DNA from: a virus
Reading direction: 5' to 3' (one strand)
IMG/VR virus record: IMGVR_UViG_3300047470_000343
Coordinates: 29,786 to 93,785 of that record
DNA length: 64,000 nucleotides
Both the position numbers and the translations under genes were made by a program. The notes under the pieces were generated by a model. That model searched no databases, had not been told where the DNA came from, and saw only the letters and a list, made by a program, of their open reading frames with translations. This document shows, in pieces, positions 3,982-58,515 of this stretch (position 1 is the stretch's first letter; each line of letters begins with the position of its first letter).

Positions 3982-4019
3982 GAGGCCTTCCCTTGGCTGG
4001 ATGGAGTGAGGCACCCCGG

Positions 4020-4047: not shown

Positions 4048-4057
4048 CCGGGCCGCG

Positions 4058-4459: not shown

Positions 4460-4533
4460 GGCGCCTCCTCGGTCGATGGTCGGTCAGGGTGCGCGGGGGC
4501 CGGGGCCGAAGCCCGCGGCCCCCCGCAGCCTGC

Positions 4534-4561
4534 ACGCTGCACGACCGCGCCCGTTTACGTC
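4534..4561 (-). promoter_or_regulatory. Conserved promoter-like motif
   Basis: GACGTAAAC-13nt-CAGCGT. Confidence 0.7.
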
Positions 4562-24235: not shown

Positions 24236-24259
24236 CAATCCTGCCTTGTCGGGTCGGGG

Positions 24260-32847: not shown

Positions 32848-33096
32848 TCACGGTCTGACCTCGACCACGCTGGTCTTCTGCCTCAGCAGAGCCAGCACCG
32901 CATCCGCGTCGCCCGCATCGAGATCCCGCCAGGGCCCGAGGGGGCCGAGCAGCACCGGAGTGCTGGCGTACTGCTCGACCATCGCCCTCACCCGGCGGGA
33001 CCCGGTGACCGGGCCCCCGCCGGGGATCTGGACCTGATAGGCGGAACCGTCCTCCATCGTGCCCGTCACTAGCATGCTTGCCTGCCTTCCTGTCAC
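32848..33096 (-). CDS. Small hypothetical protein coupled to the giant gene
   Basis: GTGA overlap with the giant gene stop (alternative ATG 33075). Confidence 0.7.
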   Translation of the reverse strand: MTGRQASMLVTGTMEDGSAYQVQIPGGGPVTGSRRVRAMVEQYASTPVLLGPLGPWRDLDAGDADAVLALLRQKTSVVEVRP

Positions 33097-36000
33097 CGAG
33101 TGGCGAGCAGTCCCAGAAGGAACGCCCGCAGGTCGTCATCCCTGTACCAGTCGCCCGAGAACATCGTCGCGAGCCCGCGAGCCACGATCTGGTCATCGGT
33201 GACGTCCTCCGCCCGGCCGCCGAACAGCCGCTCCAGCAGCGCATCCAGTGCGCTGCGCCGGGCCCCGGGCCGTCCGGTGTGGGTCCGGGTGAACCCGAAC
33301 ACCTCCTGCGCGGCCACCAGATCCGGGTAGGAGCGCTGGAGGTGAGCCACCAGAGCGTTCACCGCGGTGCCCCGGCCGCCGTCGCCGAGGTCAGCGACCG
33401 TGGCCGTACCGGAGTCGGCGTCGTACGAGCCCGCGTCACCGTCGACCGCGGTCACGAACCGTGCAGTGCGGTCCGCGAGCCACTCCCGCGGCACGTAGCC
33501 CGCCGCATCGGCGAGCGCTCGCGCCGCCGCCTGGTCGCTGTTGTGGCTCAGCGTCAGCCGGTTCCTGCCGCCGGGGCCCATCTCGCGGACCTGCGCGAGG
33601 GTGTCACGCACCGCGCCGGGCAGCGCGGCCGTGTACGCCTGGTGGAGCCGGTCGGCTTCCTGCCGGGCGTGCTGGGCTTCCACCTGCGCCGCGGCGATCT
33701 CCGGACCGAGGTCCGGGGCGCCCTGGCCGGCCGCCACCGCCCGCAGGTTCCGCACGCGGGCCTCCGCCCGGTCCTGGTAGCGGCGGGCGTGCCGCACCGT
33801 GCCGTGCGGGTCGTCGCCGAGCTCCGGCGCGGCCGCCATCAGCCGTGCCACGACATCGGCGTCCACGTCCGTACCAGCCGCGCGCACCGCGGCGAGATGC
33901 CGCAGGGCGTACCGCCCGGGTCCGCGGTCCGCAGCCCGGTCCATCGTCCAGCCCGTGCCGTCCTGCACACCGGGGAGCTGACCCGCGGCGAGCGAGGACC
34001 GGGTGGCCGGCCGGTACCAGCGGCGGCGCCGGGAGACCTGACCGAAGTGGCCCGGGGCGGGCAGCAGCCGCGCCCAGTGCGCCACCTGGTCGGCCAGCGA
34101 CATGCCGTCACCGTGCCGGGGCAGGGAGCGGGCAGCGGCCGCGATACGGCGCAGGCGCCGAGTCTCCGGCCACGACCGCACCCGCCGCACCAGAGCCTTG
34201 CGGAACCGGTTGATGGCCTTGAACGGATACGCCACCGCGGCGGCGATGGCCTTGAGGAACGCGGCCACCAGCTCCATGATCCGGCGGGCGATCTGCGCGA
34301 GCGCCGCCTTGATGCGGGCGAGCACTCCCGGCCGCTCACCTTCCGGCAGTTGGGCCGCGATGCGCTGCGCTGCACCGTCACGGCTGTCCGCCATGCGCTG
34401 CGCGAGCCGGGCGACGATCTCCGCGCGCCGCTCCGGGGTCAGCGGCCCCGTGTCGGCGTCCCGGAGCGCTTCGCCCAGCGCGCCGTCGACGTGGCCCTGC
34501 ACCTCGTCGTCGACCCGGGAACCTTCACCCGTCTCGGGCTCGGTGTCGCCGGTCGTCTCGCCGAGGTCACCGTCCGCGTCCGTCGTCCCGGCGTTGGTGT
34601 CGACGTCGGGCTCATCCGTCTCCGGTCGGTTGCGCATCGACTCCGGGATGAGCCGCAGCAGGTCCGCGGCACGCGCCGCGGTGTCCTCGGGTGACTCCCC
34701 GTCCAGCGGCTCCAGATCGTTGAGCGTCTGCACCGCAGCCTGGACCGCGTCGGCGCGCGAGCTCATCGCCGTCCGCCGCAGCTCGGCGAGCAGCCGCTCC
34801 CGCTCGTCGCCGGTGATGCCCGACCCGTCGACCACCGCCACCGCGTCCTGACGCAGCCGCCGCATAGCCGACCGGAGCGCACCCGCCGTGATGTTCGCGG
34901 CGATCTGCTCCCGGAGCTGGTGAATGCTGCCCGGGGTCTGCGTTCCTTCCACCGCGGCGTCGACCACGGCCCGCGCCACCCAGTCGCCGTAGTCGGCCGT
35001 GAACGCCGCCGTGTCCAGGCCCGCGTTCGGGTCCCGGGCCTCGTCGTCATCGTCGGCCGGAACCTGCGGCTCGGGCAGTTGGTACAACGGGTCACCGGCG
35101 GCCATGGTCCGCTCGGAGCGCTGCCCGTTCCCGTCCTCCACCGTCAGGACCCGCACCCCGCCCGGGGCGTCCTGGACGTCCGTGACACGGTACGAGGCCA
35201 TCTCGTCGGGGTTCGTCTCGTCCGGCAGGGCGATGGTGTCGCCCACGCCGACCGAGCCGACCGTGCCCGGCTCCGGCCGCCCGGCCGGCGCACTTCCCGT
35301 GTCCGGGGCGGGCGTGCTCGGGGTCTCGCCGGTCAGGCGACCCAGGTTCGCGGCGAACCAGGCCGCCGCGGGCCGCTCCCGGTCCATGACGGTTGCCGAC
35401 TCCGGCAGGACTCCGGCCAGGATCTGGAACGTCTTGGTGCTGGGCGGGCCACCGGCCACACCCTCGATCTCTACCGTGACCTCCTTGTCGCCGACGTCGA
35501 CGGACTGCACCTTGCGGGTGAACCAGTCGCTGCCGTTGTGGCCCGTGCCGAATACCAGGTGATCGCCCGGCTTCAGCTCGGTCGCCTTCGCGATGCGGCG
35601 GTCCGCCTGATCCGTGACCCCGCCGCCTTCAAAGCTGCCGTCGTAGGGCAGCGGCTGGAACGGGGCACGGGCGCTCACGCTCTGTCGGATGAAACGGCCG
35701 TCAGCGTTGGCCAGCAGGAGATCGACGGTCTTCCCGTCCGCGCTACGGATCCCTTCCACGATCAGCAGACGGGAGGGCTCCCCGTTGACCGGCGCCACGA
35801 TCACATCACCGGTACTCAGGTAGCGCGCTTCAGTGGTCATCCCGCCGTCGTCGCTCGCCCCGGTCTGCCCGGCCGCCTGGTCGAGCCGGTCAGCGGCCCG
35901 CTTGGCTGCGCGGCCCTCCGCCGTCGACGAGTCGGCGTTCTGGCGGAGGCCTTCAGCGACCGCGGACGCCTGTCCGGGGGTGACGGGCAGGTCCCGGGCG

Positions 36001-39000
36001 ATCCGGGCCGCGCCCTGCTGCGCATCGGGGGCGTCGCCGGGGGCGGTACCCCGGTCGGCGACCGCGTCGCGCTCCTCCGGTGCAAGCTCCGGGTCCACGG
36101 TCGGCCCGGTCACGGGCTCCACCGGCGGGGCCGGCTCGCGGCTCGTGATCGGCTCCTCACGCCGCGGGGCGCCCTGCTCGCCGTCCTGCCCGTTGTCGGC
36201 GGTGTCGCCGATGACGCGCAGGTCCGTGACGGGCATGGGCTTCATGCCCTCGGTGGTGGCGACGGTCGCGGTGTCGCCGTCCAGCTCCTCCACAGTCCCG
36301 AGCATGTTGCCGTCCCGGTCACTGACCCAGTTACCGACTTCGACACGATGCCCGTCCGACGTCCAACCGGACGGGCGCGCTGCGCCGCCGTCGATGACGT
36401 TGAGGGTGCTCGGCTCGTGCGCGTCGTCGGTGCGGTCGTCGCCGAACTGCACCCGCACACCAGCGGCGTTCGCCCCGACCACGACGCCTTCGCGGCCGTC
36501 GTCGTCGGTCACGACCGACCCGGGGAACAGGCCGTTGCCGCCGCCGTCGGTCGCCACACGGTCGGCGATCCGGCCGGTGAGGACGTCGGAGTCCGCGCCG
36601 GTCTGAACCGTGGTGGACTCGTCGCCGCTCTCGCGGGTGGCGCGGGCCGCCGTGGCGTCCGGGTGCACCCACACCGACTCGCGCTTCGTCGAGCCGTCCG
36701 GGGTCTCGGCGATCAGAACGCGCACCATGTCCTGAACACGCCGGGCCCGGACCGTGGGGACCTGCGTAGGCCCGTCCGTGACGTACCCGGCCAGGGTCCG
36801 CGCGGTGCCGCCCTTGGTGATGCCGTCGATCCGCACCACGTCACCGACGTTGATGTCGGAGACCTTGACCCACTCCGCGGGCCGGCCGCCGACAGGCTCG
36901 GGCACGGCCGGGCGTTCCGGCTCCGCCGTGTCGTCTGCCGTCTGCTGCGGGGAATCCGCGGCCGGAGACTGCGGGCTGGCCGGGGCCTGCGCCGGGGCCG
37001 GGCGCTCCTCCGCCGGGGCCGGAGCCGAGGTCTCGGCTTCGGGCGCCGGACGGTCCTCCGCCGGGGCCGGAGCCGGGGTGTTGGCTTCGGGCGCCGGACG
37101 GTCCTTCGCCGGAGCCGGGGTGTTGGCACTGGCGTCCGTGGCCCGCTGGGGGGTGACCTCGGGGGTCTCGCCGACCTGGCGACCGTACTTGTACTGGTCC
37201 ACCGGCACGTTGACGTCGTCCGCGGACATCAGGCGCTGCGCGTTGTCACCGATGGGGATGACGAACGTATGCCCGGAGAGGTCGTGGCCCCTCGCCTGGC
37301 TGTCGGCGACGGTGATGCGCAGAGCCTTCTGCCGCTTCTTGTTGATGGTGATCGAAGCCGGACGGGGCTCACCCACCACGTAGCCGGTCCTGTCGCTGGT
37401 CGCTCCCGGGTAGCGGTCGGTGATCCGGCCGTTGAGGTGCACGATGTCGCCCTCGCGGAGGTCAGTGACGGGAACGCTCTCCGCCCTGCCCATGCCGCCC
37501 TGGTCCACAAGCGTGGTGAGGAACTGCTTGGCGGCCCGCGCCTTGCTGGTCTCGTGGTGCATGGCCCGCGGGTCCTCGGGCCGCAGTACGTCCAGGTACT
37601 CGCGGATCTCATCGGCCAGCCAGCCGGGGCCGAGGATGTGAGTGTGCTTCAGATCGGCAGGCTGGTACGTGTAGTGAGTGGCGTCGAGCCACCGCAGCTC
37701 GTCGTGCAGGTGGTCCAGGTCGTCCGCCACGTTGCCGCTGATCGTCTCGCCGCGACCAAGCGTGTCGACCATCGCCCGTATCGCGCCGTACCGCTCCATG
37801 TCGGCAGGGTTGTCGTTCAGGGTCTCCAGGCCGCGCAGCCCCTCCTTCTCGGGCGGGAACGCGTTGCCTGGGTTCAACCTCTCGAAGTCCCAAGCGATGT
37901 CGGGGTGGACGATGCTCAGGTCGGGCGCGCCCTGTTCCATGTCCCGCAGTACGAGATGGGCGATGGCCGCATCCCGGGTCGAGAATGTGCCGGGGTGGAA
38001 ATAGGTGCCGAGGGGCATCTCGCCCTCCCACCGCTCCTCGGGCGGTGTCATGTAGAAGCCGACGGTGTGCGGTGCGCGCAAGGAGCCGATCAGCCGGCCG
38101 TTGCGCCAGACCTCTTCGCGGCCGTGGTCCGAAACGAGCTTCGGGGACGGCGTGAACCCCTGAGCGGCGAGTTCCTGCATGCGCTCGGGGGATCCGAACA
38201 GGGCGCGCTCACCCTCTTCGCTGATGATGCGGTTCTCACCGGTCTCGTACTGCTCCAGCTCCTTGTGCGTCGGGATGCGCCGACCGTCCACGCTGCCCGC
38301 CTGGCCCGTTGAGTGTGCGGCGTTGATGCCGTACTGGGACGTGGGCGCCGGAGCGTCACCGGCGGGGGCCGCGCCCTGACCGTCGCCCGCGCCTGGAGCG
38401 TCGGAGCCGCCCGCGGAAGGGGAGTTCGAGGATGAGGCGCCGTCCTGGCCGCCGACCGGCGTCGCAACGCCCTCGCGTGGCACGTCCGCCCCGCCGGCCG
38501 CAGGGGCGTCGGTGTCAGGGAGGCGCGCGACCTTGTCGTCCCGCAGGATCGTCACGCCGTTGCGGACGTTCGGCTTGGCGTCGGGGTTGTCGCTCAGGTG
38601 CAGACGCCAGGCCTTCAGACGCTCCCCGTCGCGGGTCGCGGTGACCTCGCGGGCCGGGGCAAGGAGGAAGCCCTCCCGGGTCACCTTGTTCCCGGCGGTG
38701 TTCTGCGTCTCGACGCGCACCCGGTCACCACGCTGCGGCTCGTCCGGGTTCACGATCTCGGCGCGCGGCTCGTCGCTGATGTCCGGGACGGACGGCGTCC
38801 GCTCCGGCCGCTGCGGCGTGCTCTCCCCGGGCTCGGGGACGTAGTCCCGGTACTGCACATCGGCGCCCTCGGGGATGGCCACGATGTCGCGCGGGTGGAA
38901 GCGCCTGGGCTGGTTTTTGACCCCCCAGTAGCCGTCTCCCTGCCAGTCGGCGGAGCGGTCCACCACGACGTTCATGTGCTGGGTGTTCTTGCCGTCCCGG

Positions 39001-42000
39001 CGGCTGACGATCCGGAAGCGGTCCCCGATGCGGGGCTGGATCCGGGACCCGTCAACGGCCTGCCAGCCCTCCGGCGCGGGCACGCGGGACGCGCTGGCCC
39101 GCTCCTCCCAGGTCTCCATCCGGCGCTTCAGGTCGGAAGTGTCCTCGCGCCCCGGGTTGCCCTCCGGGAGCCGCTCCGCCAGCTCGCCGTCGTAGAGCGA
39201 CGCCGACTCCCTCTGCACTGCGTCGCCGCCCTTGAGCGGATCCCGCGACTCGACCTCAATACGAACGCCGCCGTTGAACTGCCTGGTGTGAAGTACGCGG
39301 CCCACCAAGTGCTCCGGCTCGTTGTATATCTGGTCTGCCCCAACGATGTGCACCCAGTCCCCGACCTCAATCTCGGACGCGGGAACCATGTCGCCGTCGT
39401 AGCGCTGTCGCAGCGCCGCGTACTCGTCGGGCAGCTCCGCGGCAGGGTTGGCGTTGTCGGCCTGGCGGGTGCCGGTGGGCGTGCGGCCGGAGCCGTCACC
39501 GCGGTCGCGGCCGCTGCCCGTGCTGGGAGTGCTGCCGTCGGGGAAGTTGGGCAGGCCCATGCCGGGGCCGCCCGGGAGCCCGCCGCCACCACCACCGCTG
39601 GGGACGCCGTTGCCCAGCCCGTTGCGGCGACGCCGGCGCCTGTCCCGCTCCTCGTCGTTGTTGTCATTCTCGGACTCGTCCGTGTTCGGCTCGTCGGTCC
39701 CCGGCTCGTCGGTCTGGGACTCGTCGGTCTGGGGCTTGTCGGTTTCGGGTGCGTCCGTGTTCGGGTCGCCGGTCCCAGGCGCGTCGCTCTTGGGCGCGGC
39801 ATCGGGAGCGACGCCGGCCGTCGTGTCGGTCGCTTCGGGGTTGGGGGCATCGTCCGGCGCGGCAGTGTTGCTCTTGGGCGAAAGCCGCTCAGCCCACTCA
39901 TCGCTCTCGCCGTCGGCGACATAGATGTCGTCACCTGCGTGCCCACGCGTCGAGACGGCCAGCCGCCAACCGTCAACCTGGGTGCCGTTGCGCCACATCT
40001 GCGCCCGCTCCGGCGGCTGCAACAGGTCGCCCTCGGCCACGTATATGCCGCCGAGGAACTCGCTCGATCCGCGGACCCGCAGACGCTCGCCTTCCTTCAG
40101 CGAGGCGACATCAGCGGCCTCGCCTTCCGGGCGCCGGGAAATGGCTTGAGCGGCCTCCCACTTGCGGTCGTCTTCCTCAATCTCCCGCTGTACCCACTGG
40201 TCGCGGACTGCGGCGTTCGCCTTCTTGCGCAGGGCAGGCTCCGGCGCGGTCAGGTGAACGACCCAGTCGCCCGGGTGCTCGGTGTGGCTGCCAGTGGAGA
40301 GGCTGGTCGTGCGCGTTCTGCCCTCCTTGCCGTCCGCGTGCAGGTTGATGACGCGGTGGACGGCGCCCAGACCGTCGAACCTGTTCTCGTTCCTAAACCA
40401 GCCTCTCGCCGGGCGGTAGAGGTCGCCGGGCTTGAGGTTTTGCAGACGCGTCCAGCGCATGCCGTCGGGGAGTTCGGCCTCTCCGACGATGAGCTGACCG
40501 CTACCCGTCCTGGGGTCGGCGACAGGAACGTACTCGGCGCCGAGGGCGCTACGCCTGGCGTTGTAGTGGTGGTACCCGGCGAACGACTGGTCGTCGTCCT
40601 GCCCGCGCCAGGCATGGAAACCCGCGTAGTACGACGTGACGTCGTCACGCGCCGAAATGAGGGATCGCCGCACTTCGGGGAAAGCTCCAGTGAGCCCGTT
40701 CGCTTTCTGTTCCGGGTCGTCGCCACCCGCAACGCCAACGAGGAAGTCCTTGACCTGCTGCTCTGTGAGCCCATGCCGGTCGGCATCCACCACAGCGGCA
40801 GCAATCTGGTCCGGCACAACCTGCCGGATCTGCTCGCTGTCTTCGGCCCACCGGGCATTCAGCTTCTCGGCGGCATCCTTCAGGCCGGATCGCGTAGCGA
40901 TGCGCGGGAGCATGATCTCCCGGCTTGCCGCACGGAACTCCCCGGCAAGTCGCTGTGTGGCCTCCCGCATGGAGGCTGCATGACCGGCGAGGAAATCCCT
41001 CTGGTCGCCGTCGTACTGCGCGAGCAGATGACGCGCGTTCTCGTCGAACTGGTCCAGAGGGAAGGCATCACCCGCGCTACCGATCCACTGGGGGGCCCCC
41101 TTCGGGCTGAGCGGCATGTAGGCGGGGCCGGGCATGTTCTTGACCCGGTCCAGAAGCGCATTCCGCGGACCGTCCGGGGCCGGGTTCGCCCACACGCCAG
41201 CCCACTTGCGGTACTCGTCGACGCTCTCCTGGTCGTCCCGGGTGTATTGGCTCAGGTCGAGCCCGGGAACGTCCGGGATCTCCAGTTCAGGCACCGGGCC
41301 GGGAGGCGCCATCCGCTCGACCTCATGGCCGGCAGGGACTTCGATCACGTCGTCCTGCTCATAGGCGGCATGCGGCGTGTCCGCGATGTGCACCGTCCAC
41401 GACATGACCGGGTCATCGCGGCGAGGGCCGTCTCGCCTCGCCGAGCTGCTGACGACGTACCCCTCGCGGGTGACCTCGCTGCCGTCCGCGTCCGGCACCG
41501 TGACGCGGATGTACTGGCCGGGCTTGACCGATTCCATGTCGACAGGGCCCAGCGCCGGGGCTTCGGGAGCGGGTAGCCGCTGGATCTTCTGGTCAGCGGG
41601 GATGTCAACCTGGTTGCCGCGGCCGGGCGACTGGTTCGGCCCGGTGCCGAGGTACAGGATCCACGCGTCGTAGTCTCCGTGCCGGGGACGGTGGCCCTTG
41701 CCCTTGCGGGGGTTGGCCAGGAGGTAGCCCTCGTGGACTCTGATCCTGTCCACGGTGTCCGACACTTCCACGCGGACGTAGTCGTTGAGGCGGGCCTGGT
41801 CCGGGCTGATGGTCTCCCCACCGGCCTCCGTCTCGGAACCGGCCTCGCCCTGGTCGCCGTTGGCGGCCGGGCTGCTGTCGCCGCCGTTGAGGTCGGTCAG
41901 CTCCTGGCGGACCTGCGCAGCGTCGAGCTTGACCGGGGTGCCGGCCTCCGACGTCTCCCGGTGCCCGTACGGAACCCAGTCCGGGGCGTCGACGTCGCGC

Positions 42001-45000
42001 GGGACGTCCGGCTCGCCCGGAGGGGGCATGGTCTGCCAACTGTGCCAAGCGCGCGACGCCTGCGCACGGATCTTGTCCGCAAGTCTCCGGAGAACTGCCT
42101 GCCGACGTCGGCCCTCGGGGGTCGACGCGTCAACGCTGTCCGCGGTGGCCGCGGCCTCCTGCGCGAGCCGGTTCATCTGCTGGTAGTTGAGGCCGCCCTG
42201 ACCCCAATGCTTCGCAGCCTCACTCAGCTCAGGGTCAGAGGACTTCTCCCAGTCCTTGACGAGCTTGAAGAACTCCTCTCGCTGCACGTCGCTGAGCTCG
42301 GAGTACTGGACTATGTCGCTGCCCTCTTCGGGCCGCAGGTGCCGCCAGGCCGTGTCCTTCAGCGCCACCCGCATTCCGCTGTCGCGGCGGTTGCTGTCGA
42401 CGGCCTGAGCGGCTTCTCGCGGCCCGTACAGCGGGTCGGAGTCCGACTGCGCCGTCCCGCCGGCGGTCTGGCCACCGCGGGCGTCCTGGCCATGCCACAC
42501 AGTGCCGCGGCGGCGGATCCAGCCGACGGCGTTGCCGTCCTCGTCGAGAACCTGCCCGCGGCCTTCCTCCAGGTCCAGATTGGCCAGGCGCGCGCCGTAG
42601 AAGAGCCCCAGGCCCTCGGGGGACTGCGCCGACTCCAGATCCTGCTGCCGCTTCTCCGCGCGTGCCGTTTCCTGCGAGGTGGGGGCGTCGTGCTCGGCCG
42701 TGCGCGTCTCGCCGGGCATGGACAGTTGGCGGGGCTCGTACGTCCGGGGAGCGCCGCCGCCGTCGAGGACAACGACCTTCCCGTCCTCGGCGAGGATGAC
42801 GCGGCCTTCCCCGTTCGGGGTGACCACCCAGTCGCCGTTGTTCCACTCGGGGGCGGTAGAGCTCTCAGGGGCTTCCCGGTCCGGCTTGGCGATTGTGGAG
42901 GCAGGCAGTTCCTTCGGGAGGGTGATGCCTCGGAGCTTGGCGCTCTCCTTCACGTCGCTGCGGCGCAGCGCTTCTTCGGCGGCCTGCCGCGACTCCTCGG
43001 TCTCATCCAGGGTGACGAGCTGCCGGGGGTCGTAGCCGGTCCCGCCGCCTCCCTGGGTGTTGAGGACAGCGGTGTAGAGCGATGTGTGGCCGTCTGCGTC
43101 CGTCTTCGCGGACATGACGAACCGTGAACCCCACAGCGGGTCGCCCGACGAGCCCAATCGGATCACGTGGCCCGGCTGGATCTCGTCCGGCGAGACAGCC
43201 CGGAATCCCTCGGGGAGGGTGTCCGCCCACGCGGGCCTGGGGAGGGCAGAGCCGTCGTCCGCGCGCACCGCGATGAAGTGGTCGGCGTACCAGTCGGGAT
43301 TCGCCTGGAACTCGTTGCCGGAGCTGTCGCGCAGGATCGGGTTGCCGTGGGTGCCCACGACGCGGGCGGTGACGGTCTGGCCGTCGTGATTGCGGTAGTC
43401 GACGTAGTAGCCGACCTTGTAGGCGATGTCGAAGCGGCGACGGTACCGCTCGACCTCGTACGGGGTGGCGTCCGGTCCGGGCGGCTCCTCGTTGCCCGCG
43501 ATGATGTCGTCGGCCGGGGCCTTCGGCGCGGCTTCGGGTGTCTTGAGCGCGGCGAGGTCGTTGCGGACCTGCCCGGCGTCGAGCTTGACCGGGGCGTCGC
43601 CGCCGGCCGACGGATACCGGCCCTCAGCCACGGCCTGGTTCAGCTCGTCCTCGGACGCGACCGGCAGTTGCGGCCGGTCCTGCCCGTTGCGGCGCTGCAC
43701 CTGCGCGGTGCTGATGTACTGCTCGCGCTGCTGCCCGTCCACGTCGTAGCGGGCGATGAGCCCGGGGCCGTCGAGGCGGGCGACCTCGCCCACGCGGCCG
43801 GTGCCGTCTTCCTCCTGGAAGTTGATCCGGTCGCCCGGCTTGAAGTCGTCGAGGACCCAGTCCCGCCGGTACTCGCCGGTCGGCGGCTGCGTCGGGTCGT
43901 CGTCGTTGACAGCCTCGAACACCCAGCCCAGGGATCCGGAGTCGAGGACGTCGGTCGCCCGGGTCACCGCCACATAGGCGACGCGCAGGTCTTCATCCTC
44001 GGGGACGGTGTCCCACTTGATGTGGCCGTTGTCGTCGTACTCGGGGCCGCGGAAGTCGTCCGCGATCCTCACGCGCTCCGACTCCAGACCCTTGGACTTG
44101 TGGGCCGTCGTCACGAGCAGATCGTGCGGCTTCTTCTCGTCGACCAGGCGGCCGCCGCCGGTGTCCTCCTGCGGGTACAGCTTCGCCAGATGGGCGTCGA
44201 TCTTCGCCTTCGCGTCTTCCAGCGACAGCTTGTTGTCGACCTGGTAGTTGATCGTCCTTCCGTTCTTGGTGAAGGACTCGGTGCGCTTGCCGGGCTCGTA
44301 GTAGTAGCGGCGGGACTCGCGGTCGTACAGCAGCTTGCCGACGCCGTTGGTCTTGCCGTCACCGAGCCACCGCTTGAGCTGGTCGACCTTCGGGTCGTTC
44401 CAGTCGAGCGTGACCCACACGCGGCCGCCGACGTTCTCCGTTTCCGCGGCCTGCGCCCCGGACTCCATCAGCTTGTCGATCTCGTCGCTGTGCTTCTCCA
44501 GCAGCGCGAACAGGCTCTTCAGTTGCTGGAGCTCCGGGTCGGAGTTGACCTCTTCGAGGATGTCCTCGTACGACTTGCCGTTGAAGCGGGCGAGCTCGGC
44601 GTGGCTGGTGCGCTCCCCCTTGGCAAGGGTACGAGCGGCCGTCACGAACTCCTGCAAGTCCTTCACGCCGCCGGACACGGCGATCGTGCGGCCGGCGGCG
44701 AGTCCCTCCACCGCGGCGAGCGCAACACCGGCGTTCGTGCGGGCGATGACCATCGTCTCGTCGCCCGGCTTGATGTTGCCCAGACGCGAGTCCTTGCGAT
44801 CGAAGCCCTTCAGCCGCATCCGCGTGCCCAGCAGGCGCAGGAACCGGTTGCCGACGTTGGCAACGGCCGGGCCGAAGCGGAACGACTGGGTGAGCGTGGC
44901 CCGCGCGTCGACCGGGAGCTTGCTGAGCGCGTCAGAGGCGCCACGGAAGCCGTAGATGGCCTGGTTGGAGTCGCCGACCGCGACGACCTGAACGCCCTGG

Positions 45001-48000
45001 TCGATGGCGGCGCGAACCACGCCCTCCATGACCGGGTTGACGTCCTGCGCTTCGTCCCAGAACAGGGTGTCGGCGTCGATCTTGAACCCGCCGACCGCCC
45101 ACATCTTCACGATGTAGTCGAAATCCATCGGCAGGTCTTCGTCCGCGTCGCCCTTGGTCGGGTCGGACAGGTTCGCCCACATGCGGTCGGCGAGCGGCTT
45201 CACCGCGTTGAACAGGTCGCGGGCCTCCTGCGCCGTCTTGGCGCCGGTGATGTGCTGCGGGCCCATCTCCGCGTCCGCGGACTTCGCCCACGTCTTGATC
45301 ATCAGCTCGGCGACGGTCGCAGCACCGCCCGGAGCCAGATCCCGGTTCCCGGCCTTGACCGTGTCGTACCAGCGCATGCGGTCCGCGATCTGCTGCGCGG
45401 ACAGCTTCTTGAACCCGCCCTTCTTGTGGTTGGGCAGACGGTTGTTCAGCCGCTTGTCCGCGACCTTCGCCGCATACCCGTTCGCCGTCGAGGCGGTCAG
45501 GTTCTTCGCGTACTCGCCGCGGGCCTGCGCCTCGCGCGCCTCGTTCGCCACCGACCGGTTGAACGCCAGATAGACGATCTTCTTGCCCGGCATGCGGTGC
45601 GACAGCATCTTGAGCGTCGACGACTTGCCCGTACCGGCGAGCGCCATCACGGCCATGTTCAGGCCGCGGCGGGCCGCGCCGTCGATGATGATGCCCTGCT
45701 CCTCGGTGGGCGGGTACGACTCGTTCGCCGCCGCCGCGGCGTCGATACGCGCCCAGTCCTCGTCGGAGTAGCCGCCCGCCTTCGCCGCGGGCAGGTCTTC
45801 CACCCGGTGCACCAGGCCCGTGGCTTCGGCGTCGTTCAGCCCGTACCCGGCCAGCCGGTCACGGATGACGTCGCCGCGCTTGCGCGGGATGACCTTCCCG
45901 TCCTCGTCACGCTCGACAGTCGGCTTCCAGCGGCGCCGCTCCTCCTCCTCCAGCTCGAACCGGCGCTGCTCCAGACGGAGCCGGTAGGCGAGATCGACGG
46001 AGTCGGTCGCGTCCTTCAGCGGCTCGATCTGCTCGTCGAGGGTGTCGATCTCCTCGCCGATCTGGCCGCCCTCCATGTCGGCCGGCGGGGTGGCCGGGAC
46101 CGGGCGGGCATCCGACGGCGCGGTCCGCTGCCGCTGGGGAGCGCTACCGCCCGTGCCCGTGCCCGCGGCGGGTGCCGGGACCGGCTCGGGAGCTGGCTGC
46201 TCCTCGCGCTCCGGCTGGGAGAGCCGGTCACGGCGGGCCCGCAGCTCTCGCTGCACCGCACCCACCTGGACACCGAAGCGTCCCGAACGCTCCTCCGGCG
46301 TCATCTCCTGGTCGTGGAGAGCGTCCGCCAGGTGCAGCGCGGTCTCGCTGGCCGGGCCGAACACATCGCCCGCGGCCTCGCCCCACTGCTGATCCAGGAA
46401 GGTGAACAGCTCGTCGGAGAGCTGCGCGACCCGGCCGCGGGCCTGGCCGCCGAACTGCTCCTCATACCGTGCCCTCAGCGAGCCGAGAGCCGCACTGTTG
46501 TCCGCCTTGTTCGCGGTGAACAGGGAGCCGACTTCACCGTCATCCGCCGCAGACGGGGCCGGGGTCGGCCCCGAGGCGGCGGCAGGCTGGTTCGGCGCAG
46601 CCGGGGGTTCGGTCTCGTTGGTGGTCGGCTCCTCGGCCGGAGTTTCCGGCGCGGGGGCCGGGGTGCCCGTCAGGCTGCGGCGGAACTGCTCCTGTGCCTC
46701 CCGCTCGATGCGGTCGCGCTGCGCGTCCTCGCGGCGGCGCTTCTCGACCGTCACCGCGTGGCGGGCAAGGTAGTCGTCGGTGACCCGCAGGAAGTTGTCC
46801 AGCGGCTCCGCCATGCCCTGCCGGTCAGACTCGGTCAGCCTGTTGCGCAGGCGCTGCGCGTCCTCGTGAGCGGCACCCAGGGCGCTGGCCGTGTCGTCGG
46901 TGTCGCCCGACTCCTGTGCGGCGATGGCCTGGAACACGTTGTCGCGGAGCGAGCGGGCCGGAGCCGGTATTTCCCGGCCCCACGTGGCTTCGGCCGCGGT
47001 GGTGACCTGTCCCTGTGCGCCTTCCACTCCGGCGATGCCCGCGCGCCACTCGCGCTCGTTGGCGAACGGGCGCACCGTGTCGGCCTGCTTGCGGGCCGGC
47101 CGCGGGCGCTCTTCCTTGGGCGGGGTGTTCCGGGGGGTCGGGGGCTTCGGGCCGGTGCCCGGGATGCCGCTGGTGGGCGCCGCGGCGGCCGGGGTCTCCT
47201 CCGGCTTCGGGGTGTCCTCCGCTGCGGGCTTCGTGTCCGCCGGGTCGGTGATGAGCGTCGACCCGAAGTTCTGGAAGAACTCCTCGTTCGGGTCCGGCGA
47301 GTCTTCGGGGTCACCCCAGTCCGAGGAGTCGTCCTTGCCGAGCTGCTGGGTACGGCCCTCGATCAGGTCCCGGTGGTTCGGGTCGGTGGACTGTCCGTCG
47401 TTCCTGTAGACCTCGTCGTACGCCACCACGTCCCGCATGTCGACGTCGGGCAGATGTACCAGGAGCTCACCGGGGGCGTAGTCCGGATCGAGCACGATCG
47501 AGCTGCGCAGCTCGTCTTCCCTCGCATCGTCGAAGTCGCTGCTCCGGATGACGTCGCCGCGCTTGAAGTCGGACGCCTGCCAGGGCTGTTCCGGCTTCTG
47601 GGCGGGCTGCGGACCGGTGTCGTCGCTGGCGGTCGGTTCGGTGTCCGGGGAGATCTGGGCGAGGTCGTTGCGGACCTGCTTCGGGTCCAGCATCGTCGTG
47701 CCGCCCTGGCCGCTGGGCTTCGAGGACGGCTCCGAGGCGGAACGATTCTTCGCACGGCGCTGCTGCTCACGCTGAAGTCCGGCGTGACGCATCACGTCGG
47801 CTTCGCTGGCTTCGTCGTTGGCTATGAGCTCGCCCAGGCGCTCGGTCTCGCCCGTCAGCTCGGACTCGTTCATGGTGAGCGCGTCCGACTGCGCCGGGGC
47901 TGCCTGCTGCCGCTCGACCCGCGCGAGGAACGCCTCACGCTTCGCGGCGAGCTTCTTGTCCCGTACGGCCTTGCGGGCTTCGTCCGTGGGCCACACGAAC

Positions 48001-51000
48001 TTGACCTGCCCCTTGTCGTCCTGCGTGACGGCCGGCGGGGCGGGCGTCTTCGGCGACAGGTTCACGTCCCGGGCGGCCACCTGCGAGAGGACGTCTTCCT
48101 GCTCGCCCATCAGCTCGTGGAGCTCCGCGTCCAGCGCCTTGATCTGGCCTTCGCGCCTCTTGGCGTCTTCCTCACCGCCCGCGGGCTGCGCCTTCAGGCG
48201 CATGATCTCGTTGAGGATTTCCAACTGCCGGTTGGCGGTGTCGTACTCGTCGGTGAGATCGAACTTCTTGCCGACCCGGGCGGTTGCCTGTTCGGCTGCA
48301 CGCTGCTTGTCGGAGAGGAACCCCTCCTCACGGGCGATCTTGCCTTCGATGCTGGCGAGCGCGTCCTCGATACGCATCAGCGGAAGCATCTGCGGCTTGT
48401 CGTCGATGTCGACGAGCTCGTGCTCCTCGTAGGTCTTGCTGCTGCCGGAGATCGCCGGGACGTCGATGGTGACTGCGTGCTCGGTCCGGCCCTGGTAGGT
48501 GTTCCAGACACGTTCGTACTTGGCCGTGACGTCGAGGCCGCCGATCTGCCCGATCACCTTGGGCGGGGTGTTCGCGTTGTACATGCCCTGACGGCCGCCG
48601 ACCAGGATCGCGCGGGCCGTCGTGTTCAGTGCCGAACGGGCTTCGTCGCGGCCTTCCTTGCCCTCGAAGTCGGTGGTGCCGATACGGGCGTTGAAGTCGG
48701 CGCCACGGGTCGGCTTGCGCTTGGCCTTGGCGTCTTCCAGCGCCGCGACGTACTTGGCGGCCTGCCCCGCGTAGAACTCTGCGTCGCGGATCGCACGCTT
48801 GAAGCCCTCCTGAGAGCGCTGGTGGGCGTTGAACCGGGCGCGCAGCCGCTTCACGATGGGCTTGATCTGCGCCTGCGCGATCAGGTGCGGGTCACCCGCG
48901 GTGAGTGCGCTCGCCTCGTCGGCGTCGAAGGTGATCTTGCCGATGTCCTCGACGACGCGTTCGTTCAGCGAGCCGCGCATCAACTGGCGAATGAACTTCG
49001 CCTTACGGGCGATGGCTTCCCAGAACTTCGCGTCGGTCGACCGTTCGGTGGCGTACTGGAAGATCGCCACTTCTTCGTTCGCGTTGCCCTGCCGGATGAT
49101 GCGGCCGTTGCGCTGGTCGACGTCGGCGGGCCGCCACGGAGCATCGACGTGGTGCAGCGCGACGGCGCGCAACTGCACATTGGTGCCGGTGCCCATCTTC
49201 GCGGTGGAGCCGAGCAGAACGGAGATCTTGCCGGTGCGGGCCTCGTGGAACAGGCGGGCCTTGGCCGCGTCGTCCTTGGCCTCGTGGATGAACCGGATCT
49301 TCTCCGAGGGGATCCCGCGGGCTACAAGGAGCTTCTTCAGCTCGTCGTAGGTGGAGAAGTCGGTGTAGGTCTCGTCGTCGTTGCCGTCGTCGGTGGCGGC
49401 GGCGGCCTGGTCGCCGGTGTCGGCGTCCTCGCTGGTCGCCTTCTTGCGGCGCTTCCTCGTCTTGCCCGGGTCCTTCGGCGTGCCGAGGTCGAGGAAGACG
49501 ATCTGAAGCCCGCCCGGGGTGGCGTGCGGCGCGGGGTCGTTCTTGGGGTCCGTCGGATAGACGGCGTCCTTGGTCTGCTCATAAATCCGCGTGACGTTGT
49601 CCGCGACGGTGGGCAGCTTGTTGCCGGGCCCGGCGTCGGGGTCGATCAGGCGCGGGTCGAGAGCGGACAGCCGGCCATCGGTGAGGAGCTTGAGGTAGTT
49701 GTCCTCCTTCGGGTCCACGTTCCCGCCGGACAGGCGAGCCGCACGAGCCTTGATCTGCTGCTCGTACGCCTCCTGCGCCTCGGACATCGGCATCGTGATC
49801 GTGACGGCCTTGCCGCCGGCCACCTCGGGCACGGGAAGGTCGAGGTCTTCGGACGTTTTGACGTCGGCGAAGCTGCGCCACAGGCGAAGCAGTTCGGGGA
49901 CGTTCTGGAACGCGGCGAGACGGACCTTCTCCGAGAACGTGCCGTCGGCGCCCCGCTCGACGGCGGAGACCATCTGGGCGAACGTGGAAGCGAAGTCGTC
50001 GAAGTCCATGAGCCCGAGCTGTTCGAGCAGGTCAGGGCGCAGGTAGCGCATCATCGTGTGGACTTCAGCGATGGAGTTCGCCACCGGAGTGGCCGTCGCG
50101 AACGTCACGACACGGCCGGTGTTGGAGCGCTGACGCAGCCACTCCAGCTTCATTTCGAGGTCGCTGGCCCGGTTGGCGCCTTCGATTGCAGCGATAGACG
50201 ACGGCGTAGCCAGGTTCTTGAACATGTGGGCTTCGTCGACTACGAGGTAGTCGATGCCCATGTCCTCGAAGTTGAGCCCGGCGGCGTCCTTGAGCCCGCT
50301 CAGCTTCCGGTCGAGCTTTTCCTCAAGGTTCTTGAGCTGGTTCTGCATCCGCTTGACGAGGCGGGTGTCGTTCTCCGCGCCGTCGAGGGCCTGCTGCTTG
50401 AAGATCTTTTCCCGCAGGCGCTCCAGCCGCCGCGTGATGTAGGCCTCTTGCACCTCGGGGCGCATCTGGATCGACTCGAACGCGGTCTGCGTCAGGATGA
50501 TCGCGTCGTAGTCACCGGCCGCGGCCCGCGCGATGAACTCGCGTCGGCCCTTGCCTGCCAGGTCGTCGCTGGAGGCGGTCAGGATGCGGTTGTTGGCGAC
50601 GGACTCGGGGAACAGCTCGGCGAACTCGTGCCGGAACTGCTCCAGCATGTGACCGGGGACCACGATCGCGGCCTTGTTGACCAGGCCCAGGCGCCGCAGC
50701 TCCATGACGCCCATGGCCATCTCGGCGGTCTTGCCTGCGCCGACCTCGTGGGCGAGGAGGACGGACGGCTCATTGACCATCCGGGCGACGGCGGCGTGCT
50801 GGTGCGGGTGCGGCTTGAACCACTCGACCAGGCCCGGGATGGTGCGGCGCTGCCCGTCGTAGGAGCGCGGCGCCATCGCGTTGAAGTTGTCGTTGTAGAG
50901 CCGCTTGTACTTCTCGCCGCGGTCCGGGTCGCGCCAGAGCCAGTCAGTGAACTCCTCGCGCAGGAGTTCGGCCTTCGCCTCGGCGTCCTCGGTGCCCTTG

Positions 51001-54000
51001 GAGTCGTACTCGCTCTTCCCGTTGACCGTCTGAGTGACGCGGATCTTCTTGTTGGTGAGGATCGCCTCGACGATGTTCACCGCGTCGTAGCCGGGCGCGC
51101 TCCACGTGTCCTTGGTGCGGTAGGCCATGGCCTTGCGGGCCGACTTGGGAAGGTCGACAGCCCACAGGGCGCCTCCCTGCCACGACACCTTGATCTGGTC
51201 GGTGCCGAGGGTTTCGCGGAGGAACTGCTCGACCGGTTCACGGCCGATCCAGGAAGCACCGATCGGCGCGGCGATCTCGCCGGTGGACAGGTCTGCCGGG
51301 ACGACCCGCTCAAGCTGCTCGACGTGCAGATCGAACTGCGGGTCGTCGACCGCGGCCTGCCGCGCCTCGGCGAGCTTCTCGCGCACGTTGCCGGACAGGT
51401 AGTCGGCAGCCATGACGAGCTTGCCGTCCGGCGCACGGAACGCCAGCGGGTACTCCACACCCGTGTCCGGGTCGACGGACCGCACGGCCAGGAGCCGGGC
51501 GACAGCGTCCTCGGGGTCGGTGTTCATGACCCGGGCCATGCCGTCGGCAGTCAGCCGGCCGTCCTGGTCCATCACGATCGCGAGGGCGTCCTGCGGGTCG
51601 TCCGCGTGCTGGGCGATCTCACGGAACTTGCCCTGCCGCTTGGTGAAGACGGCGGCCCGGGTCGTCTGCTTGGTGTTGTCGTCGTACTCGTCCAGCGGCG
51701 AGATGTTCGCCATCGTGGGGTCCTTGGCGAACAGACCTCCGCGCGGCGCCCTCTTCCGGTAAGCCTTCTTCTCCTGCTCACCGGTCTCGGCGTTGGTGAC
51801 GGTGCGGTGCGTCCACGTGAACCGGTTGATCGCGCCGTACTTGGCGGCGTACGCCTCGTACTGCTCGTTCAGCCCCGCCCGCAGCCGCTCGATCAGCGAC
51901 TCGTCGGCGTCCTTGCGGGACTCCTCCGCGAGCAGCGACTGGAACGTGTCACGGACCGCGAGGAGCTTGCGCGCTTCGTCGACCTGGTTCTTCGGCACCG
52001 TGAACGGGTGAACCATGCGGTCGCGGACCTGAGTGAACGTTCCGTCAGGCTCGGCCTGCACGTGCCCGTCCACGCGGGCCGAGCCCGGCGGCAGAAGCAC
52101 GACCTTGCGGCGGTTCTCCGGCGCGGCCTGGTAACCCAGCCCCATGTCCTTCGCCGCGGCGACCGACCGCTTCAAAGCCCGGTCCAGGTTGGCGAGCAGG
52201 TTGCCGTCGCCGTCCGCGCGCAGCTCGTGGTCGTTGTGCTGGCCGCTCCCGACCGCGAGCTTCCCGAGCACCTGCTCGGGGTGGTCGTGGAAGTAGGAGT
52301 TGTAGAAGACCGGCGGCTCGTCGCCTTCCGACGGAACGTCGCTCTTGGGCGGCGTCTGCCCGGGAAGGGCGTACGTAGGCAGGGAGTGCACCCACATCGG
52401 CGGATCGTTCTGGCTGCGCTCGGACGGACGCTTGACCTCGCCGTTGCGGGCGCGGCCCGACGTGAACGTCTTGTCCTTGTCGCGGCGCTTGAAGATCAGA
52501 AGGTCGGTCATGACCGGAGTGCCTGCGGTCCGCTGGTGCGCACCGGACGGCAGACGGATCGCGGCGACCAGTTCGCCCTTCTCCGCCATCTCCATACGGG
52601 CGGACTCGGCCCGCTTGCCGTGGCCGTCCATCGTGAGCGCGGACGTGATCACGGAGACCAGGCCGCCGGCCCGGGTCAGATCCAGGGACTTGAGGATGAA
52701 GTGGTTGTGGATCGAGTGGCCGCCCTTGTTGTGCACCAGGTCGGGCACCTTGTAGCGGCCGAAGGGGACGTTGCCGATCGCCATGTCGAAGGTGCCGTTG
52801 GGGGCACGGGTGTCGCCGAACGACTCGTGACGGACCTCGGAGTGCGGGTAGAGGGCCTTCGCGATACGCGCCGTGATCGGGTCGACCTCGACGCCGGTCA
52901 TCTCGGCGCCGTCGGGGGCGTAGCCGATGAAGTTGCCGACGCCGGATCCCGGCTCCAGCACCATTCCGCCGTCGAACCCGAGTCCCTCGACCGCGGCCCA
53001 GACCTGCTGAACGATCTGCGGGTCGGTGTAGTGGGCGTTCAGAACGTTGTCGTTGGCGTCCGCCCACTCCTTGTCGGTCAGGAGCTGACGCAGCTTCTCC
53101 GCGAGCGGCGCGAACTGGCCCTCGGGGCGGGGCTTGAAGAGGTGCGGGACCGCGCCCCACCCGGAGTACCGGGCGAGCTCGGTCTGCTCGTCCGGTGTTG
53201 CCGGACGGTTCTCGGCCTCCAGCCGGTGAAGGATCTCGATGGCGGCGATGTTCGCCTTCGCCCGGTTGAGCGGGCTGGACGGCGCCAGGGTCTCGCCACT
53301 GGCCGGAGGCTCGAACGACGGAGCGGTGGCCTGCTGCTCCGGGGTGCCGAACGCTACAGAGCCGGAATCTCCACCGGCGGCATGTCCTTCGTCTCCGTGC
53401 CCGGCTCCTTCTCCATCCCGTACACCATCTCGTGCAGCACCCGTTCCCGAGCTCGCATCTTCACGGACTTCCGCTCGTTGGCCCGATCCACGACGTCCGT
53501 CCCCGCCACCAGAGGCGGCAGCCACTCGTCCGTCAGATCCTCGATCGCCGCCACGATCTCCGCCGACCGCTCCCGGGCGAACTCCTCCAGCGCCGCGTTC
53601 GTCGGCATCGCTGCCACCTCGCTGGGCCGGTACGTCTTCCAGAACGTTCGAACGAGATCCTCGTACGCCACCGTCGTTGCTCCTCTGTGTGTGATCGGCC
53701 AGGGCCTTCAGGGCGATGTCCACGTTCTCCCGCGCGGTACGCAGAAGGCTCTGGACGTGAATGTTGCGGCGGGCATCCATGCCGCGGGTGGCGCGCTGGA
53801 CCGCATCCAGCGCGGCCCGGAACTTGCTGATCGCGTCGGACGGGGTCAGCTCGCCCCGCTCATACTGATCCAGCACGTCGGCGGCCTGCACAGCGAGGTC
53901 GCGCGCAGCCTGCTCTCCGTGCAGTTCACGGATGTCGTTGATGGCCGGGAACATCTGGTTCGAGGCCTCGCGCAGCGCCGCGAGGACGTGCTGCTTCATG

Positions 54001-57602: not shown

Positions 57603-57609
57603 GCGGCGG

Positions 57610-57637
57610 ACCATGCACACCGGGGGTGGTTAGTGTC
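57610..57637 (-). promoter_or_regulatory. Conserved promoter-like motif for the giant gene
   Basis: GACACTAAC-13nt-CATGGT, 7 nt before ATG 57602. Confidence 0.75.
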
Positions 57638-57673: not shown

Positions 57674-57889
57674 CTACATCGTCTCGTTCAAGATGTGGAG
57701 CAGGAACCAGCCGCTGAATCCCGTCCACCCGATGGTGAAGGCGGCTCTGCCGAGCTTCGAGGTCCGGACGTGGAAGAGCCGTCGGACGTTCTCGCTGAGG
57801 GTGTCGTCGTCCTGGCGGTTGATCAGCGCCCACGTCTCGTACAGGGCGAATACGGAGGTCCACGCAGACCAGACGAGCCAGCTTTTCAT
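57674..57889 (-). CDS. Small two-TM membrane protein
   Basis: WLVWSAWTSVFALYE...DTLSENVR...FSGWFLLHI; ATGA-coupled. Confidence 0.8.
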   Translation of the reverse strand: MKSWLVWSAWTSVFALYETWALINRQDDDTLSENVRRLFHVRTSKLGRAAFTIGWTGFSGWFLLHILNETM

Positions 57890-58515
57890 GATGTCGTCTC
57901 CATCGCTGAGGAGGGCAGGGGGCGGGGGCCGGTGCCGTCGTACGGGGCGGCGAGGCCGGCGTTCATCAGTGCGCGAATGAGGTCGTGGCCGTAGGGGGTC
58001 GCGATGGTGGCGAGGTAGCGGCCGTACTTCTCCCGGCGCTCGGTGTCGACGGTGAACGCGGGCCCGTGCTTGGCGACCCAGTCGCGGACCCAGTCGGCGG
58101 CGTGCTTCCCGGCGTCGGTGTTCTTCTCGGCGGTGTTGATGCCGAGGAGCCGGACGCGTTCGTAGGCGCGGAGTTCGAACCCGAGGTCGATGGCGAGGTC
58201 GAGGGTGTCTCCGTCGATGACGCGGGTGATGCTCGTGGTGTAGGTGTGCGGCGCCGGGGCGTCGGTGAGGGTCGCGAGATAGCGGCCCTTGGCGTCGCGG
58301 GTGGTCTGGACGGTGAGCGCGCCTCCGCCGGCCTTCAGGTGCGCGCGGGCCCATGCGGCGGCCTTCTTCGGGTCGTCGGTGGCCGTGTCCGCCGTGGCGA
58401 TGGCGGCCAGGCGGACGCGTTGGGTCAGGTGCAGGTCGAACCCGAGGTCGATGTCGAGATCGAGGGCGCCCGCGCGGCCGAGGCTGAGGATGGTGGTGCG
58501 GTAGGTGTGCATCAC
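57886..58515 (-). CDS. Thermonuclease (SNase-fold) with a duplicated degenerate N-terminal copy
   Basis: RVIDGDT...DLGF...RVRLLGINTAE...EKYGRYLA in the C-terminal half. Confidence 0.88.
   Translation of the reverse strand: MMHTYRTTILSLGRAGALDLDIDLGFDLHLTQRVRLAAIATADTATDDPKKAAAWARAHLKAGGGALTVQTTRDAKGRYLATLTDAPAPHTYTTSITRVIDGDTLDLAIDLGFELRAYERVRLLGINTAEKNTDAGKHAADWVRDWVAKHGPAFTVDTERREKYGRYLATIATPYGHDLIRALMNAGLAAPYDGTGPRPLPSSAMETTS

What the first reader, a model, noticed from the sequence alone, without database searches (positions are those of the whole stretch)
41890..47699. The protease/scaffold C-terminal peptide recurs three times inside the giant protein: candidate capsid cargo-loading signal
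Seen: the protease-2H protein ends DTVHLDPTEVKAALAALAL (29412-29470). The giant protein has TTMLDPKQVRNDLAQI (~47652-47699), APVKLDAGQVRNDLAAL (~43545-43596) and TPVKLDAAQVRQELTDL (~41890-41940). The shared pattern is LD-x2-[QE]V-x3-L-x2-[LI]. Each copy sits in a low-complexity linker, and two of them bracket the UvrD-containing region. Established: scaffold C-terminal amphipathic helices bind the inside of HK97-fold procapsids (e.g. P22). Inference: the giant protein reuses this docking peptide several times so that it, or its processed fragments, is packaged and injected. That would be an internal, repeated address label for virion cargo.
Basis: partly seen in the sequence, partly recalled or inferred. 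Interest (0 to 1): 0.9.

Follow-up and report, generated by a model that had tools for sequence, protein, structure and literature searches.

The report
Shared docking helix on protease and giant cargo
A Streptomyces phage carries the same short helix at the very end of its head protease and three times inside an 8175-residue anti-restriction protein; it is probably a tag that loads both into the phage head, but binding has not been tested.

Summary
The pattern LD-x2-[QE]V-x3-L-x2-[LI] occurs four times in the six-frame window. Three copies are in the 8175-aa ORF and one is at the C-terminus of the S78 protease/2H/scaffold fusion.

- **Specificity:** a profile built only from internal giant-protein copies finds only other giant-protein copies and the extreme C-termini of protease homologues. 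The search covered 3.9 M residues from 110 related loci. Profile-profile comparison of the two sets gives 95.9% probability.
- **Conservation:** the tail is kept in 85 of 87 related Streptomyces/Kitasatospora phage or phage-plasmid elements. Internal copies (1-3) occur in 72 of 89 giant proteins.
- **Position:** the copies sit just after module ends (DarB-like, UvrD, a third module).
- **Structure:** AlphaFold2 shows isolated short helices flanked by disorder.

Tail and internal copies do not co-vary between elements. Some relatives, such as phage Gilgamesh, have the tail but no internal copy. The canonical protease sites (h-E-x-K|S/A) form a different class, which weakens the cleavage-site rival. 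I rate this a new variant of known capsid-targeting signals.

The parts
47652..47699 (-). Internal motif copy 1 (giant residues 3308-3323, TTMLDPKQVRNDLAQI). It lies 24 residues after the end of the DarB-like methylase/SNF2 module.
   Evidence: 30 bits; DarB-like PHROG match ends at residue 3284.
43545..43592 (-). Internal motif copy 2 (giant residues 4677-4692, PVKLDAGQVRNDLAAL). It lies about 15 residues after the UvrD helicase plus SH3-like barrel module.
   Evidence: The AlphaFold2 helix spans residues 4682-4693 and is flanked by pLDDT <50. The motif is cleanly absent from the orthologous linker in three relatives.
41889..41936 (-). Internal motif copy 3 (giant residues 5229-5244, PVKLDAAQVRQELTDL), directly after a third conserved module (residues 4700-5225).
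29415..29468 (-). C-terminal tail of the protease/2H/scaffold fusion (residues 648-665, TVHLDPTEVKAALAALAL). It is a terminal helix held on a disordered acidic linker of about 75 residues.
   Evidence: conserved in about 95 homologues; helix 653-664, disorder 587-650.
33093..57620 (-). Giant ORF of 8175 aa; the true start is probably the ATG at residue 7. Modules: conserved N-terminal region, DarB-like N6-methylase plus SNF2 helicase (1118-3284), UvrD helicase (about 3940-4560), many small SH3-like barrels, and a conserved C-terminal third (6064-8175).
29412..31409 (-). Prohead serine protease (S78) fused to a 2H/LigT phosphoesterase and a scaffold-like C-terminal half.
27944..29245 (-). HK97-fold major capsid protein with an N-terminal delta-like helical domain. 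It is the presumed receptor for the docking helix. E-G-K-S-I at residues 129-133 is invariant and is the likely maturation site.
58512..60971 (-). Portal protein fused to a MuF-like domain, upstream of the giant gene. This is the head-module context.

Best explanation
The element is a self-contained amphipathic helix of about 12 residues. It has a hydrophobic staple and capping box at its start (V-x-L-[D/S/T]-P-x-E-V). It ends either at the chain terminus (protease) or at R-P-[E/D] (giant protein). It sits in disordered linkers.

I propose that it is a docking peptide for the inside of the assembling prohead. The most likely receptor is the HK97-fold capsid protein or its delta domain. The protease/scaffold fusion uses one copy at its C-terminus to be built into the prohead. 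The DarB-like giant polyvalent protein carries 1-3 copies, one after each enzymatic module. These would bind the same receptor at several points, so the protein is enclosed and later leaves with the DNA as anti-restriction and helicase cargo.

Shown: the motif identity, its specificity, its conservation, its placement at module ends, its helix-in-disorder structure, and the head-module context.

Inferred: binding to the capsid, encapsidation of the giant protein, and its ejection.
For: 1. A profile built only from internal copies retrieves only giant-internal copies and protease C-termini from 17,647 six-frame ORFs (3.95 M residues). The counts are 55 + 32 + 0 other. After iteration they are 146 + 47, plus one copy in a split giant-protein fragment.
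2. hhalign of internal copies against tails gives probability 95.9%, E=5.6e-9, in exact register.
3. The tail is present in 85 of 87 distinct elements although the linker before it varies freely.
4. The internal consensus has invariant V and L, a capping box and a Pro stop. 72 of 89 giant proteins carry 1-3 copies.
5. Copies lie right after module ends.
6. AlphaFold2 places both the tail and copy 2 as isolated helices between disordered stretches.
7. Residues 1118-3284 match the DarB-like antirestriction PHROG with E=0. The gene lies between portal-MuF and protease, as darB does in P1. P1 DarB is packaged through a short targeting signal (PMC9024508).
8. Scaffold C-terminal helices contact the capsid N-arm or spine helix in P22 and 80alpha (PMC12749128). 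From my own knowledge, the HK97 protease C-terminus directs encapsidation (Duda et al. 2013, J Mol Biol 425:2765; I could not read this paper here).
9. Plasmid-type relatives without the phage N- and C-terminal modules (P0030-P0039) have no copy.
Against: - No binding evidence of any kind was obtained.
- Each element's internal copies are no more similar to its own tail than to the tails of other elements (observed 26.96, shuffled 27.99).
- The two classes differ systematically. The tail reads E-V-K-A-x-L-A. The internal copies read [E/Q]-V-[R/S/A]-x-[D/E/Q]-L and are followed by R-P-E. They could therefore have different partners.
- 17 of 89 giant proteins, including Gilgamesh gp48, have no copy while their protease keeps the tail. 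The motif therefore cannot be the only packaging signal. The conserved N- and C-terminal regions may be the main one.
- No stand-alone helicase among 120 shorter homologues ends in the motif.
Confidence: 0.5

Rival explanations
1. The motif is a recognition or cleavage signal for the prohead protease. The giant protein would be a polyprotein cut at, or next to, each copy into DarB-like, UvrD and other fragments. The copy on the protease would be its own last self-cleavage site (E-V-K|A).
For: The tail contains E-V-K-A, which matches the E-x-K-[S/A] pattern. That pattern is strongly enriched in the disordered linkers of the protease: 8 observed against 0.27 expected here, and a mean of 4.95 per homologue. 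It is also invariant at the capsid delta boundary as E-G-K-S. Copies mark module boundaries. An earlier scan note (e1-5986456) made the same suggestion.
Against: - Canonical sites have a hydrophobic residue at P4 in 89% of cases. The tail site never has L, I, V or M at P4.
- In internal copies the would-be P1 residue is not conserved (R 35%, S 27%, A 13%, also E and D). The invariant residues are the hydrophobic V and L of a helix face.
- E-x-K-[S/A] is not enriched in the giant protein: 3 observed against 4 expected.
- Serine proteases bind extended strands, not capped helices.
Confidence: 0.15
2. The helix is a shared short linear motif, but its partner is not the capsid shell. Possible partners are the portal-MuF domain, the scaffold-like domain of the protease (residues 424-566) forming an internal core, or a host factor.
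For: The same evidence that the motif is specific, conserved and a tethered helix applies here. T4 targeting sequences bind the scaffolding core rather than the shell (PMC7411985). The portal carries a MuF domain, which has been proposed as a cargo adaptor (PMC5512222).
Against: A terminal helix on a protease/scaffold fusion is, by precedent, a capsid-binding element. A portal has only 12 subunits, which is too few for the usual protease or scaffold copy number. A host-factor motif would be expected in other phage proteins too, and none was found in 110 loci.
Confidence: 0.2
3. The helix is only a structural spacer that arose by duplication of linker cassettes. Its likeness to the protease tail would be convergence or an old recombination relic with no common function.
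For: Copies are gained and lost cleanly between close relatives. Copy number varies from 0 to 3. No co-variation was found.
Against: Invariant V and L and near-invariant L are kept across copies whose flanks have diverged completely and across genera. The tail is kept in 85 of 87 elements at the extreme terminus. The copies are not DNA repeats, because codons differ.
Confidence: 0.1

Closest known systems
C-terminal capsid-binding tails of prohead proteases and scaffolds (HK97 gp4, lambda C/Nu3, P22 gp8, 80alpha scaffold, herpesvirus UL26/UL26.5)
   Same: A short conserved helix at the extreme C-terminus of a protease/scaffold protein, tethered by a flexible linker and encoded next to an HK97-fold capsid gene.
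   Different: There is no sequence similarity to those tails. Here the same peptide also recurs inside another protein, which has not been reported for those systems as far as I could find.
Capsid targeting sequences of packaged phage proteins (T4 IPI-III/Alt CTS; P1 DarB N-terminal 30 residues)
   Same: A short peptide that suffices to load cargo into the head. The cargo here is DarB-like and the gene sits beside the portal and protease genes, as in P1.
   Different: Those signals are single and N-terminal. In T4 they are removed by the protease and bind the scaffold core. Here the copies are internal, repeated, placed at module C-terminal ends, and shared with the protease tail.
Encapsulin cargo-loading peptides and domains
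   Same: Short conserved peptides in disordered regions of cargo that bind the interior of an HK97-fold shell. From my own knowledge, family 2 cargo carries repeated motifs in a disordered domain.
   Different: This is a complete tailed-phage head module with portal, protease and tail genes. There is no sequence likeness to encapsulin peptides.
Polyvalent proteins of phages and conjugative elements (Iyer et al. 2017, PMC5512222)
   Same: A giant multi-enzyme protein (methylase, SNF2, UvrD) next to the portal/MuF genes, predicted to be packaged and delivered with the DNA.
   Different: That work proposes MuF and metallopeptidase domains for loading and processing. A linker helix shared with the prohead protease is not described there.

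Membership tests
Protease/scaffold C-terminal capsid-binding tail | Located at the extreme C-terminus of a prohead protease or scaffold protein encoded next to the major capsid gene | tested here: met
   P0002 is S78 protease + 2H + scaffold-like half. The capsid gene is immediately downstream. The tail ends 1-4 residues before the stop in homologues.
Protease/scaffold C-terminal capsid-binding tail | Conserved while the preceding linker varies; helical | tested here: met
   85 of 87 elements keep it. AlphaFold2 gives helix 653-664 after a disordered stretch at 587-650.
Protease/scaffold C-terminal capsid-binding tail | Binds the capsid protein and is required for incorporation | not testable with these tools
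T4/P1-type capsid targeting sequence (CTS) | Single N-terminal propeptide of the cargo | tested here: not met
   The copies are internal, at residues 3311, 4680 and 5232 of 8175.
T4/P1-type capsid targeting sequence (CTS) | Sufficient to load a heterologous protein | not testable with these tools
   This needs reporter fusions.
Prohead protease cleavage site (h-E-x-K|S/A class of this phage group) | Hydrophobic P4, E at P3, K at P1, S/A at P1' | tested here: not met
   Tail P4 is D, E, A, T, N or S and never L, I, V or M. Internal copies lack a conserved P1. The tail keeps E-V-K-A only.
DarB-like / polyvalent packaged protein (for the giant ORF) | Methylase plus helicase modules homologous to DarB; many domains in one polypeptide; gene in the head module | tested here: met
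   phrog_10089 DarB-like, E=0, residues 1118-3284. Pfam Eco57I, SNF2, Helicase_C and UvrD. The gene lies between portal-MuF and protease.
DarB-like / polyvalent packaged protein (for the giant ORF) | Present in virions and ejected | not testable with these tools
   No proteome of this phage group was found in the literature searches.
Encapsulin cargo-loading peptide | Shell without portal, tail or packaging genes; cargo co-encoded | tested here: not met
   Portal, protease, head-tail adaptor and tape-measure-size genes are present.

The most novel reading that the evidence does not exclude
The phage uses one docking helix in two versions. The version on the protease/scaffold is cleavable (E-V-K|A inside the helix), so that protein is released and expelled at maturation. 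The version on the cargo is non-cleavable ([E/Q]-V-R-x-[D/E], with an R-P-E stop) and is repeated after each enzymatic module of the roughly 880-kDa giant protein. The cargo would then stay tethered at several points to the capsid wall until ejection. This would be a modular address-label system: new enzyme modules become packaged cargo simply by gaining the linker cassette.
Probability: 0.15. Interest if true: 0.8.

Novelty: new variant of a known kind. Interest (0 to 1): 0.6.

Why it matters
How giant polyvalent proteins get into phage heads is an open question, because only a few targeting signals are known (T4, P1 DarB, the HK97 protease). This is a precisely defined 16-residue candidate signal. 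It is conserved in about 90 Streptomyces and Kitasatospora phage or phage-plasmid elements and shared between the assembly protease and the cargo. That makes the question directly testable with reporter fusions and point mutants. If the signal is real, it would be a portable tag for loading proteins into actinophage capsids. It would also explain how anti-restriction modules are added to or removed from the packaged arsenal by cassette gain and loss.

Tried and rejected
- **Co-variation of tail and internal copies:** in 22 elements each element's internal copies were no more similar to its own tail than to other elements' tails (p about 0.91). The core is near-invariant, so the test has little power.
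- **Split-gene idea:** I asked whether modules were once separate genes ending in the tail. Among 120 shorter homologues of the UvrD module, the motif occurs only in fragments of giant proteins, never at the end of a stand-alone helicase. There is no support.
- **DNA repeat or recombination joint:** the copies share 33-48 of 63-66 bases and differ in codons, so they are not a DNA-level repeat.
- **The search for related loci with a single sequence or the full-length alignment:** this failed. It worked with a C-terminal alignment.
- **Duda et al. 2013:** the paper is not held. I cite it from memory only.
- **Chance or composition:** rejected.
Full report
**Context.** The window is part of a 93.8-kb virus record with about 70% G+C. 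All genes discussed are on the minus strand. In order they are:
- a portal fused to a MuF-like domain (58512-60971);
- a staphylococcal-nuclease-like gene (57886-58515);
- an uninterrupted 8175-codon ORF (33093-57620);
- a 209-aa gene of unknown function;
- a protein joining an S78 prohead protease, a 2H/LigT phosphoesterase and a long C-terminal half (29412-31409);
- an HK97-family capsid gene (27944-29245).

The nearest GenBank phage is Streptomyces phage Gilgamesh, which has the same gene order. Related elements are mostly 125-135-kb contigs or plasmids of Streptomyces and Kitasatospora, and a few lie in chromosomes.

Shuffles of the giant protein give 0.0027 matches against 3 observed. In the whole record the four are the top hits of a motif profile, and the next hit has E=1.6.

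**The tail and the internal copies are the same element.** I built an HMM only from internal copies found in 36 full-length homologues.
- I searched it against 17,647 six-frame ORFs (3.95 M residues) from 110 loci. It found only giant-internal copies and the last residues of protease homologues: 55 and 32, with no other hit.
- After four more rounds restricted to giant proteins it found 146 internal copies, 47 protease tails and one copy in a split giant-protein fragment, and still nothing else.
- Profile-profile comparison of 47 internal copies with 36 tails gives 95.9% probability, E=5.6e-9, in exact register.
- In three whole Streptomyces genomes (25.7 Mb), all hits better than E=0.01 lie in giant ORFs. 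The protease tail scores E=0.018 and one unrelated frame scores E=0.010.

**Anatomy of the motif.**
- Tail consensus: acidic linker, then T-V-R-L-D-x-x-E-V-K-A-x-L-A-x-h-x-x, then the chain end. It is present in 85 of 87 distinct elements.
- Internal consensus: (D/G)-T-V-T-L-(D/S/T)-P-(D/E)-E-V-(R/S/A)-x-x-L-(D/A)-x-(I/L/V)-R-P-(E/D). V is 99%, the central L is 100% and the first L is 94% conserved.

The L before the D/S/T and the V four residues after it form a hydrophobic staple. D/S/T-P-x-E is a helix capping box, and R-P closes the helix. In the protease the chain end takes the place of R-P. This reading follows from general helix-capping rules and is my inference.

AlphaFold2 agrees with it. 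In the protease the order is:
- protease domain, residues 18-173;
- disordered, 175-195;
- 2H domain, 200-355;
- mostly low-confidence stretch with two short helices, 362-417;
- a further domain, 424-566;
- low-confidence acidic linker, about 574-650;
- terminal helix, 653-664.

In the giant-protein segment 4570-4800, a confident SH3-like barrel is followed by the motif helix at 4682-4693, with pLDDT <50 on both sides.

**Placement.** In full-length homologues the copies lie just after the ends of conserved modules. The order is DarB-like module, copy, UvrD module, copy, third module, copy.
- 72 of 89 distinct giant proteins have 1-3 copies in the part seen.
- Close relatives can lack a copy cleanly from an otherwise alignable linker.
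- Plasmid-type relatives without the phage-type N- and C-terminal regions have none.
- Gilgamesh gp48 lacks the enzymatic middle and has no copy, yet its protease keeps the tail.

**What the giant protein is.** Residues 1118-3284 match the DarB-like antirestriction PHROG with E=0. Pfam finds an Eco57I-type methylase, SNF2/Helicase_C and UvrD. P1 DarB is a 250-kDa protein packaged at about 40 copies. It is loaded through a short N-terminal signal and encoded beside the portal and protease genes (PMC9024508). Polyvalent proteins next to portal/MuF genes are predicted to be packaged (PMC5512222).

**Best explanation.** The helix is a docking peptide for the prohead interior. The protease/scaffold fusion uses it at its C-terminus. 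The giant cargo uses it after each module, which gives multi-point tethering and co-assembly. Precedents:
- Scaffold C-terminal helices contact the capsid N-arm or spine helix in P22 and 80alpha (PMC12749128).
- The SPN3US protease C-terminal propeptide has been proposed to target that protease into the prohead (PMC7411985).
- From memory, the HK97 protease C-terminus directs encapsidation (Duda et al. 2013; not readable here).

The receptor, encapsidation and ejection are all inferred.

**Cleavage-site rival.** An earlier scan note (e1-5986456) suggested E-x-K sites. I tested this.
- E-x-K-[S/A] is strongly enriched in the protease linkers: 8 against 0.27 expected here, and a mean of 4.95 per homologue.
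- It is invariant as E-G-K-S-I at the capsid delta boundary. These are probably the true processing sites.
- Those sites have a hydrophobic P4 in 89% of cases. The tail's E-V-K-A never has L, I, V or M at P4. Internal copies do not conserve the would-be P1. The giant protein is not enriched in E-x-K-[S/A].

The motif is therefore a different class of signal. The tail could still be cut at E-V-K|A to release the protease, which is the basis of the novel case.

**Weaknesses.**
- Tail and internal copies do not co-vary and they differ systematically, so a common receptor is not proven.
- The motif is dispensable in some family members, so other regions must contribute to loading. The N-terminus with W-N-x-x-L-H-P-R-D-S-K-G-R-F and the C-terminal third are conserved in relatives, and both are shared with Gilgamesh gp48.

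**Novelty.** Literature searches found no description of a peptide shared between a prohead protease tail and internal sites of a packaged giant protein. I rate it a new variant of known capsid-targeting signals. The mechanism is plausible and directly testable.

Noticed in passing
window 29412-31409 (protease) and 28850-28864 (capsid residues 129-133): E-x-K-[S/A] with a hydrophobic P4 occurs 8 times in the protease fusion against 0.27 expected, all but the tail copy at domain boundaries that are disordered or low-confidence in the model. It is invariant as E-G-K-S-I in 39 capsid homologues. These are probably the maturation cleavage sites. They would free the 2H phosphoesterase as a separate packaged enzyme.
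   Followed up: partly
window 57500-57602 (giant residues 7-47): The giant protein probably starts at the ATG of residue 7. Its N-terminus carries a near-invariant W-N-x-x-L-H-P-R-D-S-K-G-R-F-x-E-T-G-G block, shared even with Gilgamesh gp48. This is a candidate primary anchoring or processing element.
   Followed up: no
L013, L045, L041 and the contig lists: Relatives are mostly 125-135-kb contigs. One is annotated as a complete plasmid (S. kronopolitis, 135 kb). A few lie inside chromosomes of 7-10 Mb. This suggests a phage-plasmid lifestyle with occasional integration.
   Followed up: no
window 57886-58515 and 26330-27592: Two genes sit inside the head module: a staphylococcal-nuclease-like gene between portal and giant gene, and an exonuclease/metallophosphoesterase-like gene just after the capsid gene. 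Neither carries the motif.
   Followed up: partly
window 23600-24238: A poly-gamma-glutamate hydrolase gene (Pfam E=1.7e-56) lies among the head-tail connector genes.
   Followed up: no
L041:1509-7436 and the adjacent ORF: In one chromosomal relative the giant gene is split into ORFs of 1976 and 2605 aa, each with one motif hit (G002). It may be a decaying prophage copy.
   Followed up: no
protease residues 424-566 (window about 29712-30140): AlphaFold2 predicts a confident extra domain after the 2H domain: a helix, a beta sheet and two long helices. It has no Pfam match and may be the scaffold or core-forming part.
   Followed up: no
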